Sequence record: NC_133255.1
From: Escherichia phage vB_EcoS-26175I
DNA: 64,000 nt
Strand: one strand, 5' to 3'
Positions 7,379 to 64,000 of this stretch are shown piece by piece; the stretch's first letter is position 1; every line of letters begins with the position of its first letter. A program made the translations under genes and the position numbers. The notes below the pieces were generated by a model that searched no databases, had not been told where the DNA came from, and saw only the letters and a list, made by a program, of their open reading frames with translations.

Positions 7379-10228
7379 TTAAATAGATGCCCAATCCACA
7401 GATTGCTCGCCATTATCACCTTCTGCTCGTATACGGAAGCGTAACTTCCTATTAATACCTAGAGCATCCTCGTTATGAAGAGCATAGTCTGCCTTATTGT
7501 ATATCAGTAGATAATCGTAGACATACTGATCTTCAATTCGTACACTTCTTAATAAACGATCTAGGTTATCGTAGATTTCGAGAGTGTAGAAGATTCCATC
7601 AATGATATCTTCTTCTGGAATTCTATCCCAGGCCAACTTAACGTCTGGTCCTACAAACTCCGATGCATCTCCTGAAGCTGTATTAGTAACTCTGAAGTTA
7701 CTAACGACGCTTAAGTTTTTAGCAGAGTTAAGTTCTACTGATAGTGTTACTGGAGAACTTCGTCTACCATTAATATCTACAGCTCTAATCTCAAATACTG
7801 CTAAACCAGCAGGTTCTCCAATAATTTCTTGGATCATTCGTAGATTTGGATTAGTTTCTAGTTGCTGTATGATATAAGGATTAGCATGTCCAGAGTGAAC
7901 GATGGAGTAATAAACAACGTTATTAGTTAAGCTAGGAAGCCAAGATAACTCACCATTCTTACCAATAGATCCTACTTGTCCACCCGGTGTTGGTGTATAC
8001 ATAAAGTCTCTAGGAGGCAGTACATTATTACTAACATCAGGGATATCGTTACCACTATTATCAACCTGCTCGGAGTTAATGAATACATCCTCACCATACT
8101 CTTGCAGTGTAATATTAATCTTACCTTCTCTAGAGTTTTCAACTTCATCAACTAGGAAGTATTTCTTATCCCAACCATAACGACCATAAGTAAAAGCAAT
8201 GGGGTCATTAGGCTCAATGCCTATGAAGTGATATGGTAATGAGAATGTGAGAGTTCGTGAGTAACGAGACTTTTTCAGTTCTCTATCTGCAAAACTACGG
8301 GCAGTATAGTAGTTAGTGATATTTGCAAAAGAAAGTTGAAGTTTTTTATCTAACCCTTTATCCTGTTCCTTAAATATAGAGTTAAAGAATGTAATGGAGT
8401 TAGTCTTCCAGCTTAATGCGGGATCTAATATAGAGGCTTGTACTGAGTTAAACTTATTTCTACCAGTAGTATCTGATAGCTCCAAATCACCATAAGTATC
8501 TAAGAAGTCAATCTCCAGTGGGGTGTTGGAGAACTTCTCAACAGTTATTCTATATTGCCCAGATAAGTTATTAATAGCACCACCATAAGACTCTATCAAT
8601 CCCTGCACATTTTTAAATACTGACTCAGAGGTATCAAGAATAGTGTTCATTTGAACTATTTGTCTATTCTCTCCTACAGCATCAGTCCACCCAACATATC
8701 TCCAATAGGGTTGCCAAGAAACCTGATAGGATTCATCAATTATATCCAGAATAGCTGCTTCTTGAATAAGTTGCTGGAGGGGGAACTGATCAATAGTGAT
8801 ATTAGCACCGTAGCGATCAGAGGTTAGGTAGTCCAGAGTTTGCCAGATACCGTTTAAGCTAGTCTTATCAGCAGTTACTCTACCATCTGAATGGTAGATT
8901 TTAGTCTTCTTACCTTGAACTTCAGCACTAACTTCTGGAATTTCTGTTCTGTTTTCGTTAATAGTAAAGCGAACAATAGCATAAGCAGTATCTAACAGTT
9001 TATAACGAGAGTCCCAGTATTCCGGTCCATTCTCATTCATGTTCTGTAGATAGAAACCTTTCTCTTTTGCAATGTTAACTAGAACATCCGCAGCAGATTG
9101 GTCTGCTCTACCATGGTAAGTCCAGATACGGATATCGCCATTACCATCATTATACCTATATTCCTGTCCATGAACAGAAGGTTCAGAGCTTGATTGACCA
9201 GAAGCAATACGTTGCATGGTATCTCCAGCTACTTTCTTAGTACCAAAGCAAGTACGAGACTTACTATCATTAGGATCAATACAGATCATTGGTACATCAC
9301 CAAAGTAGAAATCTAGAAATCCATCAATCTCACCCTCACAGAATGCATACACTATATATACAATATTAGGGTTATGCAGCTCAGTATCTGCGAATACGGG
9401 GATTCCAGGAATTTTCTGAGTTCCATACACTACCGGGAGGAACTTAGCTGCTAAGTTAAAATCGATATCAACTTCCTTAGTCACAGTCTCATAGTATTTC
9501 TTCATGCTATAGCTTCTAGAAAGACCAAATAACTTTTTCTTAGACTGTAACTTGTAGCGTTCTTCCTGAACCTGATACTTAGCAAGAATAGAGATACTCT
9601 TATTAGCGTGGAAGAATCCATAGTCCTCTTGATATTCAGGTCGCTTAGCACCGTTAGATGGAACTAATTGGCCAGCAACAATCTCAAGTCCCCTATGGGC
9701 AGCATCATCTGTGAAACGTCCGTTTACTCTATCAAAGTCATAGAATTGATTTGAACAGTTCCATGTGATAGTAGATGTGCTAATTCCAGAAGTACCAATG
9801 TTATCCTTAATACCTCCACCAGTAATTTTACCACGAAAGTAAAGTAAAGGACCATTAGTGTCTGAATCTACAGGAAGAATATTGCCTTCTTCATCAATAA
9901 CCGCTTGATGGATTGAGATAGACCTATCTAGGAAGGATACACCATTTTGGACTAGTTTTAATACTTCATCCTCCGCAGTACCTGTGATAGTAAAAGAAAG
10001 ACTACCAATGGAAAGATCTCTATTTTGTTTATGTGTTGTTATAGACTTAACCTTACCGGAGGTATAAAGAATACCATTATATCTTACATCTCTAAAATAA
10101 TCTGTAAGATATATGTATGCAGAACTTGATCCAGTAGAACCAGGCAATTCAAGAGTAATAAGACATGCAGTTTTTATTTTATTATGAGTTCTTAAATACT
10201 CTCTTGCACTGTCAAGAATTTTCTTCAT
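7379..10228 (-). CDS. baseplate hub protein (T5 pb3-like)
   Basis: 949-aa ORF, same length as T5 pb3; follows distal tail protein. Confidence 0.7.
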   Translation of the reverse strand: MKKILDSAREYLRTHNKIKTACLITLELPGSTGSSSAYIYLTDYFRDVRYNGILYTSGKVKSITTHKQNRDLSIGSLSFTITGTAEDEVLKLVQNGVSFLDRSISIHQAVIDEEGNILPVDSDTNGPLLYFRGKITGGGIKDNIGTSGISTSTITWNCSNQFYDFDRVNGRFTDDAAHRGLEIVAGQLVPSNGAKRPEYQEDYGFFHANKSISILAKYQVQEERYKLQSKKKLFGLSRSYSMKKYYETVTKEVDIDFNLAAKFLPVVYGTQKIPGIPVFADTELHNPNIVYIVYAFCEGEIDGFLDFYFGDVPMICIDPNDSKSRTCFGTKKVAGDTMQRIASGQSSSEPSVHGQEYRYNDGNGDIRIWTYHGRADQSAADVLVNIAKEKGFYLQNMNENGPEYWDSRYKLLDTAYAIVRFTINENRTEIPEVSAEVQGKKTKIYHSDGRVTADKTSLNGIWQTLDYLTSDRYGANITIDQFPLQQLIQEAAILDIIDESYQVSWQPYWRYVGWTDAVGENRQIVQMNTILDTSESVFKNVQGLIESYGGAINNLSGQYRITVEKFSNTPLEIDFLDTYGDLELSDTTGRNKFNSVQASILDPALSWKTNSITFFNSIFKEQDKGLDKKLQLSFANITNYYTARSFADRELKKSRYSRTLTFSLPYHFIGIEPNDPIAFTYGRYGWDKKYFLVDEVENSREGKINITLQEYGEDVFINSEQVDNSGNDIPDVSNNVLPPRDFMYTPTPGGQVGSIGKNGELSWLPSLTNNVVYYSIVHSGHANPYIIQQLETNPNLRMIQEIIGEPAGLAVFEIRAVDINGRRSSPVTLSVELNSAKNLSVVSNFRVTNTASGDASEFVGPDVKLAWDRIPEEDIIDGIFYTLEIYDNLDRLLRSVRIEDQYVYDYLLIYNKADYALHNEDALGINRKLRFRIRAEGDNGEQSVDWASI

Positions 10229-59792: not shown

Positions 59793-59882
59793 TGGCGGAA
59801 GAAGAGAGATTCGAACTCTCAAGCCGTTTTACCAGTCAGCCACTTTCCAAGCGGTTTTCGTCACCTATCGATTTGCTCTTCC
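59793..59882 (-). tRNA. tRNA-Ser (anticodon GGA), long variable arm
   Basis: Hand fold: acceptor GGAAGAG/TTCTTCC and 3' end GAGAGTTCGAATCTCTCTTCTTCCGCCA closely resemble E. coli tRNA-Ser; anticodon loop TTGGAAA. Confidence 0.65.
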
Positions 59883-60056: not shown

Positions 60057-60137
60057 TGGTAGGGATGGAGGGACTCGAACCCACACCCGAAGACTAGAAC
60101 CTAAATCTAGCGCGTCTGCCAATTTCGCCACATCCCC
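60057..60137 (-). tRNA. tRNA-Leu (anticodon TAG), long variable arm
   Basis: Hand fold: Leu-type D-arm GCGAAATTGGCAGACGC, anticodon stem CTAGA/TCTAG loop TTTAGGT, T-arm TTCGAGT, CCA encoded. Confidence 0.75.
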
Positions 60138-60463: not shown

Positions 60464-60542
60464 TGGTGGAGAATAAGAGATTCGAACTCTTCTGATATCC
60501 TCGGTGCAAGCGAGGTGTCCACTCCAAGCAGACCCATTCCCC
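60464..60542 (-). tRNA. tRNA with anticodon TGC (Ala-like, G3:U70) and atypical 7-nt variable region
   Basis: Hand fold: acceptor GGGGAAT/ATTCTCC, D-stem GTCT/GGAC, anticodon stem CCTCG/CGAGG loop CTTGCAC, T-arm AAGAG-TTCGAAT-CTCTT, CCA encoded. Confidence 0.6.
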
Positions 60543-63895: not shown

Positions 63896-63981
63896 TGGCG
63901 GGCCGTGTAGGAGTTGAACCTACTTTATCCTTGCGGATACGGATTAACAGTCCGGCGCTTAAACCGTTCAGCCAACGGCCC
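63896..63981 (-). tRNA. type-II tRNA (long variable arm) with anticodon GTT
   Basis: Hand fold: perfect acceptor GGGCCGT/ACGGCCC, 3-bp D-stem with 10-nt loop, anticodon stem CCGGA/TCCGT loop CTGTTAA, 15-nt variable hairpin ATCC-GCAA-GGAT, T-arm GTAGG-TTCAACT-CCTAC, CCA encoded. Confidence 0.6.
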
Positions 63982-63988
63982 TAAAATT

Positions 63989-64000
63989 TGGACGACCGCA
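63989..64000 (-). tRNA. tRNA 3' end, truncated by window edge
   Basis: TGG (CCA on minus strand) followed by acceptor-like sequence running off the window. Confidence 0.3.

What the first reader, a model, noticed from the sequence alone, without database searches (positions are those of the whole stretch)
63896..63981. Type-II (long variable arm) tRNA carrying anticodon GTT
Architecture (3-bp D-stem, 10-nt D-loop, 15-nt variable hairpin) is that of bacterial Tyr/Leu/Ser tRNAs, yet the 7-nt anticodon loop reads CTGTTAA, one base away from the Tyr loop CTGTAAA. This would be an Asn-reading anticodon on a Tyr-like body: a possible missense-decoding tRNA, a recently mutated tRNA-Tyr, or a sequencing error.
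Basis: seen in the sequence. Interest (0 to 1): 0.55.

Follow-up and report, generated by a model that had tools for sequence, protein, structure and literature searches.

The report
Phage asparagine tRNA with extra arm
This is a real, conserved asparagine tRNA gene of a T5-like phage that carries an extra hairpin arm normally seen only in leucine, serine and tyrosine tRNAs, and the same odd design recurs in many unrelated phages but almost never in cellular genomes.

Summary
On the minus strand, 63981 to 63896, lies an 86-nt tRNA (ARAGORN tRNA-Asn GTT; Rfam tRNA, 56.9 bits). It has a 3-bp D stem, a 10-nt D loop, a 15-nt variable hairpin (AUCC-GCAA-GGAU-AAA), discriminator G73 and an encoded CCA.

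The interpretation mostly fails.
- **Not an error or a recent tRNA-Tyr mutant.** The window is 100% identical to Epseptimavirus phages that annotate this gene as tRNA-Asn. Those phages also carry a separate tRNA-Tyr(GTA). In every homologue I read the anticodon is GTT.
- **Identity points to Asn.** GUU plus G73 is the E. coli asparagine identity set, and nt 28-45 equal host tRNA-Asn. G73 disfavours TyrRS and LeuRS.
- **The body is a mosaic.** The acceptor/T arm is Lys-like, the D arm is Ser-like in sequence, and the variable arm has Tyr-type geometry.

The extra arm belongs to a family. I found 85 distinct long-arm tRNA-Asn sequences in viral contigs. Most have G73 and U1-A72 and a GNRA-capped arm whose stem covaries. 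Only about 14 occur across 185,579 cellular species, mostly inside tRNA arrays.

Most likely this is a working Asn decoder charged by host AsnRS. The role of the arm is unknown. Serine mischarging is not excluded.

The parts
63896..63981 (-). Complete tRNA-Asn(GUU) gene, 86 nt, class-II-like architecture, CCA encoded
   Evidence: ARAGORN; Rfam RF00005 at 56.9 bits; annotated tRNA-Asn(gtt) in the 100% identical phage MK907268
63975..63981 (-). Acceptor stem 5' strand GGGCCGU (tRNA nt 1-7), pairing with 63900-63906
   Evidence: All 7 pairs covary across 21 homologues. 6 of 7 pairs equal the E. coli tRNA-Lys acceptor GGGUCGU/ACGACCC.
63957..63972 (-). D arm (nt 10-25): 3-bp stem GCU/AGC, G13/A22 unpaired, D loop with G18 G19
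   Evidence: Read directly, U8 to nt 26 matches the same stretch of E. coli tRNA-Ser(UGA) at 14 of 20 positions (sequence verified) and E. coli tRNA-Tyr at 9 of 20.
63939..63955 (-). Anticodon stem-loop (nt 27-43) CCGGA-CUGUUAA-UCCGU
   Evidence: nt 28-45 (CGGACUGUUAAUCCGUAU) are identical to E. coli tRNA-Asn.
63946..63948 (-). Anticodon GUU (reads AAC and AAU)
   Evidence: Invariant in all 21 aligned homologues.
63924..63938 (-). Variable arm (nt 44-58) AUCC-GCAA-GGAU plus an AAA spacer
   Evidence: The helix is 100% paired, with changes on both sides at all 4 pairs. GNRA loops cap 62 of 93 family members that form a hairpin.
63907..63923 (-). T arm (nt 59-75) GUAGG-UUCAACU-CCUAC
63900..63906 (-). 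Acceptor stem 3' strand ACGGCCC (nt 76-82)
63899..63899 (-). Discriminator G73
   Evidence: G in 81 of 85 long-arm Asn tRNAs. Part of the E. coli Asn identity set (PMC9976931).
63896..63898 (-). Genomically encoded 3' CCA

Best explanation
This is a functional phage tRNA-Asn. It is transcribed from the minus strand as part of the T5-like tRNA array. It is most likely charged with asparagine by the host asparaginyl-tRNA synthetase, which in E. coli reads the GUU anticodon and G73. It then decodes AAC and AAU, codons the phage uses heavily. The extra arm is not an accident of this genome. It is a conserved structural module: a 3-5 bp stem, usually a GNRA tetraloop, and a 3-4 nt 3' spacer. It defines a widespread, largely virus-restricted lineage (or repeated invention) of class-II-shaped tRNA-Asn.

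Shown here: the gene, its fold, its conservation, its identity nucleotides and its distribution.

Inferred: charging by AsnRS and use in translation.

Speculative: what the arm does. My preferred guess is that it changes the face of the tRNA core next to the upper anticodon stem. Host or competitor tRNA-targeting nucleases would then handle the phage copy poorly, while the host-identical anticodon arm keeps AsnRS recognition and anticodon-loop modification intact.
For: - **Bona fide tRNA.** Rfam 56.9 bits. The universal positions U8, A14, G18 G19, A21, U33, A37, U54 U55 C56 and A58 can be read in the sequence.
- **Structure under selection.** 99% of cells are paired, 17 of 24 pairs have changes on both sides, and 0 of 500 shuffles reach the observed score.
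- **Conservation.** Four genomes are 100% identical, 587 phage records hold a homologue, and these are annotated tRNA-Asn. Orthologues occur in Epseptimavirus, Priunavirus, T4-like Karamvirus, Moonvirus and Klebsiella phages, and Phapecoctavirus.
- **It is the only tRNA-Asn in the phage**, which has a separate tRNA-Tyr.
- **Identity.** GUU plus G73 is the E. coli Asn set, and it is transferable onto a tRNA-Lys body (PMC9976931). This tRNA has a Lys-like acceptor; CC31's acceptor and T stems are identical to E. coli tRNA-Lys. Its anticodon arm is host-Asn-identical.
- **Family pattern.** Of 85 distinct long-arm Asn tRNAs in viral contigs, 81 have G73 and 55 have U1-A72, the tRNA-Asn signature required by GatCAB. 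30 have C2-G71, an anti-determinant for SerRS (rules).
- **Demand.** Asn codons are 5.6% of long ORFs in the window, with AAT at 32.7 per thousand.
Against: - No aminoacylation or expression data for this tRNA type were found in the searchable literature.
- Class IIb synthetases approach tRNA from the variable-loop side (established structural knowledge, recalled, not tested here), so a 15-nt arm could interfere with AsnRS.
- This particular member also carries G1-C72, G2-C71, G73, C11-G24 and a Ser-like D arm, so SerRS could compete.
- The 27:43 pair is a C.U mismatch.
- The nuclease-shield idea has no direct support. The anticodon arm keeps the U36-A-A-U-C|C41 sequence at which PARIS AriB cuts E. 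coli tRNA-Asn (PMC12409363). The only PARIS data on a T5 relative's own Asn tRNA concern a class-I gene (Bas34).
Confidence: 0.72

Rival explanations
1. Missense decoder. The long arm, G73, G1-C72, G2-C71 and C11-G24 make it a substrate of seryl-tRNA synthetase, or the Tyr-type arm plus G34 U35 make it a substrate of TyrRS. Asn codons would then be partly read as Ser or Tyr during infection.
For: [quoted passage not shown] G1-C72 and G2-C71 are conserved in bacterial tRNA-Ser, and G73 contributes (PMC9976931).
- The same logic was used to predict Ser identity for allo-tRNAs with a long arm and G73 (PMC5389517).
- U8 to nt 26 matches E. coli tRNA-Ser(UGA) at 14 of 20 positions (sequences).
Against: - The arm geometry is not the serine type. 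Here the stem is 4 bp with a 3-nt 3' spacer. Phage tRNA-Ser in the same loci usually have 5-7 bp and a 1-nt spacer, and E. coli Ser(UGA) has 5 bp and 1 nt.
- Close relatives keep the arm but vary at 2:71 (A-U 6, U-A 1, C-G 1 of 21). Family-wide, 55 of 85 have U1-A72 and 30 of 85 have C2-G71. The arm is therefore not retained for SerRS.
- G73 is an anti-determinant for TyrRS, and A36 is missing.
- It is the phage's only Asn tRNA.
Confidence: 0.12
2. Non-translational tRNA-like RNA. It would act as a decoy or competitive inhibitor for tRNA-Asn-directed nucleases or other tRNA-binding factors, and would be poorly charged or not charged.
For: - The host-identical anticodon arm would attract enzymes that recognise tRNA-Asn.
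- The authors of PMC12409363 raise the possibility that overexpressed viral tRNAs inhibit AriB by competition.
- T5 arrays contain several tRNA-like stable RNAs of unknown function.
Against: - The full set of elongator features, the encoded CCA, the canonical 7/5 acceptor/T helix and the conserved G73 and GUU all point to aminoacylation.
- The phage would otherwise lack any Asn tRNA while using Asn codons heavily.
Confidence: 0.08
3. Recently mutated tRNA-Tyr (GTA to GTT), or a sequencing or assembly error at the anticodon.
For: One base separates CUGUUAA from CUGUAAA. The arm geometry is Tyr-like. In a few other phage lineages, long-arm Asn and Tyr share their D, anticodon and variable domains (L013 with L340, L104 with L313).
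Against: - The sequence is identical in independent isolates, and GTT is present in every homologue I read.
- A separate tRNA-Tyr exists in the same genome.
- Discriminator G73 and an Asn-type anticodon stem.
- No special sequence similarity of this tRNA to Tyr: best identity is 0.66 to Tyr against 0.67 to Ser, and the nearest bodies are Lys and Cys.
Confidence: 0.01
4. A working tRNA-Asn whose extra arm is a neutral, tolerated insertion inherited with a mobile phage tRNA gene, with no function of its own.
For: - Phage tRNA sets break the class I/II rule in both directions. Short-arm Leu account for 18 of 61 and 49 of 124 genes, and occasional long-arm Cys, Thr, Met, Trp, Ile and Glu occur.
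- T5 itself manages with a class-I Asn in the same slot.
Against: - The stem is maintained by compensatory changes, and its geometry and GNRA cap are conserved across very different bodies.
- Asn is far more often long-armed than other class-I isotypes: 14 of the 80 listed rows of a length-blind scan, against about 3% for other isotypes.
Confidence: 0.3

Closest known systems
E. coli tRNA-Asn(GUU) (asnT/U/V/W)
   Same: The anticodon loop and nt 28-45 are identical (CGGACUGUUAAUCCGUAU). Both have G73, CCA, and A37 after U36.
   Different: The host tRNA is class I: a 5-nt variable loop AUGUC, a 4-bp D stem and a U1-A72 acceptor UCCUCUG. The phage tRNA has a 15-nt hairpin arm, a 3-bp D stem and the acceptor GGGCCGU.
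Bacterial class-II tRNA-Tyr
   Same: A 3-bp D stem with G13/A22, and G34 U35. The variable-arm geometry is shared: a 3-4 bp stem and a 3-nt 3' spacer.
   Different: tRNA-Tyr has A73 and A36, a different anticodon stem, and mostly UUCG-type rather than GNRA arm loops (GNRA in 5 of 55 Tyr against 62 of 93 Asn). There is no specific sequence similarity, and the phage has its own Tyr.
Bacterial tRNA-Ser
   Same: Long arm, G73, G1-C72, G2-C71, U8 G9, C11-G24, a similar D-arm sequence and GNRA arm loops.
   Different: tRNA-Ser has a longer stem (5-7 bp) and a 1-nt 3' spacer. Here the anticodon is non-serine. The family lacks conserved G1-C72 and G2-C71.
T5 tRNA-Asn (T5t17) and other phage anti-defence tRNAs (T5 tRNA-Lys, Thr and Asn against PARIS; phage tRNA-Tyr against retron Eco7)
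   Same: Same genomic slot between tRNA-Cys and the T5.068 homologue and tRNA-Asp, and the same array. These are phage-encoded copies of tRNAs that host nucleases attack (PMC12409363, PMC11555353).
   Different: T5's Asn is a 78-nt class-I tRNA with substitutions around the AriB cut site. The window's tRNA keeps the host sequence there and differs instead by the extra arm.
Non-canonical V-arm tRNAs: bacterial allo-tRNAs and nematode nev-tRNAs
   Same: A long variable arm on tRNAs whose anticodons are not Leu, Ser or Tyr (PMC5389517). nev-tRNAs are cited from memory and from that paper's reference list.
   Different: Those tRNAs carry Ser or Leu identity and are thought to mistranslate or be non-translational, and allo-tRNAs have 8/4 or 9/3 acceptor/T helices. 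Here the helix is a canonical 7/5 and the identity nucleotides match the anticodon (Asn).

Membership tests
tRNA (Rfam RF00005) | Cloverleaf covariance-model score above the gathering threshold | tested here: met
   56.9 bits against 29; all 71 model positions matched
tRNA (Rfam RF00005) | Base pairs maintained by compensatory change in homologues | tested here: met
   99% of cells paired, 17 of 24 pairs with changes on both sides, 0 of 500 shuffles as high
Class II (type 2) tRNA architecture | Variable region longer than 10 nt that forms a stem-loop | tested here: met
   15 nt: 4-bp stem plus GCAA loop. All four pairs covary.
Class II (type 2) tRNA architecture | 3-bp D stem with positions 13 and 22 unpaired, and an enlarged D loop | tested here: met
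   GCU/AGC stem, G13/A22, 10-nt loop by ARAGORN. Some close relatives have a 4-bp D stem.
tRNA-Asn identity (E. coli AsnRS) | G34 U35 U36 anticodon | tested here: met
   Rule from PMC9976931.
tRNA-Asn identity (E. coli AsnRS) | Discriminator G73 | tested here: met
   G in 81 of 85 family members.
tRNA-Asn identity (E. coli AsnRS) | Actual aminoacylation with asparagine | not testable with these tools
   Needs a biochemical assay. No published data found.
tRNA-Tyr identity (bacterial TyrRS) | Discriminator A73 | tested here: not met
   The discriminator is G73, which is listed as an anti-determinant against TyrRS.
tRNA-Tyr identity (bacterial TyrRS) | GUA anticodon (U35 critical) | tested here: inconclusive
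   G34 and U35 are present, but position 36 is U, not A.
tRNA-Ser identity (bacterial SerRS) | G1-C72 and G2-C71, with G73 | tested here: met
   Met in this member. Not conserved in the family: U1-A72 in 55 of 85 and C2-G71 in 30 of 85.
tRNA-Ser identity (bacterial SerRS) | Serine-type long arm (length and orientation) | tested here: not met
   Here 4 bp plus a 3-nt 3' spacer. The Ser mode is 5-7 bp plus a 1-nt spacer.
tRNA-Leu identity | Discriminator A73 | tested here: not met
   G73. Rule.
allo-tRNA | 8/4 or 9/3 acceptor/T-stem configuration | tested here: not met
   Canonical 7/5. Definition from PMC5389517.

The most novel reading that the evidence does not exclude
Long-arm tRNA-Asn is a virus-specific structural class of elongator tRNA. 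The GNRA-capped, Tyr-geometry extra arm would be an adaptive module. It would sterically protect the phage's asparagine tRNA from host or rival tRNA-Asn-directed nucleases (or give a phage factor a handle), while leaving the host-identical anticodon arm available to AsnRS and the modification enzymes. That would be a route of immune evasion different from the anticodon-loop and anticodon-stem substitutions described so far.
Probability: 0.25. Interest if true: 0.8.

Novelty: new variant of a known kind. Interest (0 to 1): 0.55.

Why it matters
Textbook rules say that only Leu, Ser, bacterial Tyr and Sec tRNAs have a long variable arm, and that the arm is a recognition feature for their synthetases. 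Here a tRNA whose identity nucleotides say 'asparagine' carries such an arm.

The design is common in phages. It accounts for 14 of the 80 listed rows of a scan blind to arm length, and about a quarter of those that sit in tRNA clusters. It is nearly absent from 185,579 cellular species.

If these tRNAs are charged by AsnRS, a class IIb synthetase tolerates a large arm on the face it binds. If they are not, phages carry a hidden missense or decoy tRNA. Either result bears on tRNA identity rules, on the annotation of viral tRNAs, and on the current question of how phage tRNAs counter tRNA-cleaving defence systems.

The experiments are simple. The host (E. coli or Salmonella), the phages (for example BASEL Bas29 SuperGirl, 99% identical over this region) and the enzymes are all standard.

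Tried and rejected
- **Sequencing error or recent Tyr mutant.** Rejected on conservation and on the separate tRNA-Tyr.
- **A Tyr-derived body for this tRNA.** The nearest-neighbour search over about 2,400 phage tRNAs gave Lys and Cys, not Tyr. The same-locus paralogue ranking showed no consistent partner. The best identities to Tyr, Ser and Leu are indistinguishable.
- **A homologue in E. coli genomes or prophages.** None of 5,426 genomes has a full-length match. Only the anticodon arm of host tRNA-Asn hits.
- **Linking the PARIS experiments to this tRNA.** Bas34 (SelmaRatti) turned out to encode a 77-nt class-I Asn, so those data do not apply. T5 itself also has a class-I Asn.
- **Literature on long-arm phage tRNA-Asn.** Seven text searches found nothing describing it. 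The library lacks most 1980s T5 tRNA papers, so an early description cannot be excluded.
- **A ratio of long to short Asn in cellular genomes.** Not obtainable, because only one genome scan is allowed.
- **The single-sequence MFE fold.** It mis-folds the D arm and was not used as structural evidence.
- **The Rfam plus-strand hit to Plastid-ycf2.** At 24 bits against 65.7 it is noise.

Full report
**What is there.** The window comes from a T5-like phage. The 405 bp around the finding are 100% identical to four Escherichia phages of the vB_EcoS-26175 series (genus Epseptimavirus, family Demerecviridae) and 99% identical to Salmonella phages S114, S133 and rutana and to the BASEL phage SuperGirl.

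The last 7 kb of the window hold 21 tRNA genes, all on the minus strand. The finding is the last of them, running from 63981 to 63896.

ARAGORN calls it tRNA-Asn(gtt), 86 nt. Rfam's tRNA model scores it 56.9 bits against a threshold of 29 and treats 12 nt of the variable region as an insertion.

The cloverleaf is:
- acceptor GGGCCGU/ACGGCCC, then U8 G9;
- a 3-bp D stem GCU/AGC with a 10-nt loop holding G18 G19, then G26;
- anticodon stem CCGGA/UCCGU, with a C27.U43 mismatch at the top, and loop CUGUUAA;
- a 15-nt variable region AUCC-GCAA-GGAU-AAA;
- T arm GUAGG-UUCAACU-CCUAC, discriminator G73 and an encoded CCA.

**Not an error and not a recent tRNA-Tyr mutant.**
- The 86-nt sequence finds 587 phage records by blastn. 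Wherever an annotation was listed under the match it reads tRNA-Asn, apart from one weak partial hit labelled tRNA-Lys.
- I read orthologues from Epseptimavirus (S133, SIY1lw), Priunavirus (Providencia phage PSTCR5), T4-like phages (CC31, Merlin, Klebsiella phage Roth04) and Phapecoctavirus (tuntematon). All have the loop CTGTTAA, G73 and CCA.
- The phage identical to the window has its own tRNA-Tyr(gta) 1.1 kb further along the array, and it has no other tRNA-Asn.
- In an alignment of 21 sequences the cloverleaf is paired in 99% of cells. 17 of 24 pairs show changes on both sides, and no shuffle of 500 reaches the observed covariation score.
- The variable-arm helix is paired in 100% of cells, and all four of its pairs change on both sides. 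For example, AUCC/GGAU here corresponds to GUUC/GAAC, GAGC/GCUC and GUCA/UGAC in relatives.

**Which amino acid?** The identity rules come from the review PMC9976931.
- E. coli AsnRS depends on the three anticodon bases and G73. This set confers Asn identity when grafted onto tRNA-Lys.
- TyrRS needs A73 and U35, and LeuRS needs A73. G73 is listed as an anti-determinant against both.
- SerRS ignores the anticodon. It relies on the long arm and tertiary shape, helped by G73 and by the conserved G1-C72 and G2-C71.

The window's tRNA has the complete Asn set. Its nt 28-45 are identical to E. coli tRNA-Asn, whereas E. coli tRNA-Tyr has a different stem, GCAGA/UCUGC. Its acceptor stem matches E. coli tRNA-Lys at 6 of 7 pairs, and in CC31 the acceptor and T stems are identical to E. 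coli tRNA-Lys. That is the framework on which the Asn transplant experiment worked.

Against this, the tRNA also has G1-C72, G2-C71, G73 and C11-G24. Its stretch from U8 to nt 26 matches E. coli tRNA-Ser(UGA) at 14 of 20 positions, against 9 of 20 for tRNA-Tyr (read). Serine mischarging therefore has to be considered.

Two observations argue against it.
- **Arm geometry.** I compared the variable arms of about 400 phage Ser, Leu, Tyr and long-arm Asn tRNAs from the fetched loci. The 3' spacer is typically 1 nt in Ser, 2 in Leu and 3 in Tyr. Ser stems are 5-7 bp. Long-arm Asn has 3-4 bp and a 3-4 nt spacer, which is the Tyr geometry.
- **Family variation.** Relatives keep the arm while varying pair 2:71. 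Across the wider family, U1-A72 (55 of 85) and C2-G71 (30 of 85, an anti-determinant for SerRS) are common.

What the family shares is the Asn set, not the Ser set. U1-A72 is the feature that the GatCAB amidotransferase requires of tRNA-Asn. It is present, for example, in the 90-nt long-arm Asn of the Micromonospora tRNA arrays.

**The wider family.** A pattern that demands the Asn anticodon arm, 14-30 nt of spacer and a standard T loop found 117 viral contigs. These yielded 115 tRNA-Asn(gtt) of at least 81 nt, 85 of them distinct. The contigs range from 5 kb to 476 kb. D arms and acceptor stems differ widely. Variable regions are 11-22 nt, with a mode of 15, and the arm loop is GNRA in 62 of the 93 that form a hairpin.

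A scan blind to spacer length listed 14 long and 66 short in its first 80 rows. Among genes with at least two other tRNAs within 2 kb the split is 11 long to 30 short. Other class-I isotypes in the same loci carry long arms in only a few percent of genes.

The same long-arm pattern hit only 25 stretches in one genome for each of 185,579 bacterial and archaeal species. About 14 of these are real long-arm Asn tRNAs. Most sit in dense tRNA arrays (32-36 tRNAs in 8 kb in Micromonospora and Verrucosispora) or on tRNA-rich MAG contigs. No E. coli genome of 5,426 has a full-length homologue.

The pattern undercounts the family. The CC31-type T loop is not matched by it.

**Origin.** For this tRNA there is no detectable kinship with tRNA-Tyr. 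With the anticodon and variable arms excluded, the nearest non-Asn bodies are a phage tRNA-Lys and the adjacent tRNA-Cys, which shares 20 of the first 26 nt. The best identities to any phage Tyr, Ser or Leu are 0.66, 0.67 and 0.59. In some other lineages a long-arm Asn and a Tyr do share their D, anticodon and variable domains (L013 with L340, L104 with L313). A deep Tyr-to-Asn switch, or domain exchange, is therefore possible somewhere in the family.

**Context in T5-like phages.** T5 itself has something different in this slot: a 78-nt class-I tRNA-Asn with an altered anticodon stem, a 'tRNA-like' RNA3 and an extra ORF. Recent work shows that the PARIS nuclease AriB cuts E. coli tRNA-Asn at U36AAUC|C41, and that T5's Lys, Thr and Asn variants carry substitutions there and rescue infection (PMC12409363).

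The window's tRNA keeps the host sequence at that site. If it evades such nucleases, it must do so by another means, and the arm emerges 3 nt from the cut site. This is a hypothesis only. The one T5 relative discussed in that paper as encoding its own Asn tRNA, Bas34, has a class-I gene.

**Demand.** In 33 long ORFs of the window, Asn codons make up 5.6% of codons, with AAT at 32.7 and AAC at 23.6 per thousand. From memory, E. coli uses about 18 and 22 per thousand. A supply role would fit.

**Verdict.** This is a real, conserved, almost certainly functional phage tRNA-Asn with a class-II shape. The gene is already annotated in GenBank. I could not find its architecture or its virus-restricted family described in the searchable literature. 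The older T5 papers are not in that library.

I put charging by AsnRS and normal Asn decoding at about 0.7, Ser or Tyr mischarging at about 0.1, and a non-translational role at below 0.1. Whether the arm is adaptive (about 0.25 for a nuclease shield or handle) or a tolerated passenger remains open.

Noticed in passing
window 60057-60137 (-); L001 11455-11531 and 10459-10539: The same phage has a short-arm tRNA-Leu(tag) of 81 nt, a class-I-like tRNA-Leu(taa) of 77 nt and a tRNA-Tyr(gta) of 81 nt with an unstructured variable region of about 10 nt. The class I/II rule is broken in both directions. In the fetched viral loci, 18 of 61 and 49 of 124 tRNA-Leu genes are short-armed.
   Followed up: partly
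viral loci L002-L263; L121 and L130: Other class-I isotypes occasionally carry long variable regions in phage tRNA clusters: Cys 10 of 49, Thr 11 of 55, Met 11 of 91, Trp 8 of 42, Ile 8 of 66, Glu 7 of 58. There are also tRNA-Lys(ttt) of 88-90 nt, tRNA-Ile(tat) of 93 nt and tRNA-Glu of 89 nt.
   Followed up: no
window 63989-64000 (-), continuing beyond the window end: The tRNA-Cys(gca) gene starts 7 nt upstream of the Asn gene and is cut by the window end. It shares 20 of its first 26 nt with the Asn tRNA, which suggests a shared 5' half or an old duplication.
   Followed up: partly
L266 (T5, NC_005859) 7878-8030 (-): In the slot homologous to this gene, T5 has a 78-nt class-I tRNA-Asn with a poorly paired anticodon stem, the annotated 'tRNA-like' RNA3 and an inserted ORF T5.069. 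The Asn allele has therefore been swapped between Tequintavirus and Epseptimavirus.
   Followed up: partly
L122, L123, L126 (Verrucosispora and Micromonospora chromosomes): Arrays of 32-36 tRNA genes within 8 kb include a 90-nt long-arm tRNA-Asn with U1-A72 and G73, and several short-arm tRNA-Leu. They look like mobile or phage-derived tRNA arrays.
   Followed up: no
L001 17648-17721 (-), outside the window: A 74-nt 'tRNA-SeC(tca)' call has several mismatches in an 8-bp acceptor stem and no CCA. It could be an opal-suppressor-like tRNA or a pseudo-tRNA.
   Followed up: no
window 59793-59882 and 60464-60542 (-): ARAGORN finds 21 tRNAs in this part of the window but Rfam finds 19 at gathering score. 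The tRNA-Ser(gga) and the 79-nt second tRNA-Ala(tgc) fall below threshold, so their structures are unusual.
   Followed up: no
L143 2935-3018 (MAG contig assigned to Bacilli): A long-arm tRNA-Asn has nt 9-43 (D arm plus anticodon arm, 35 nt) identical to the window's tRNA, while its acceptor stem and variable arm are quite different. This hints at modular exchange between tRNA halves.
   Followed up: no
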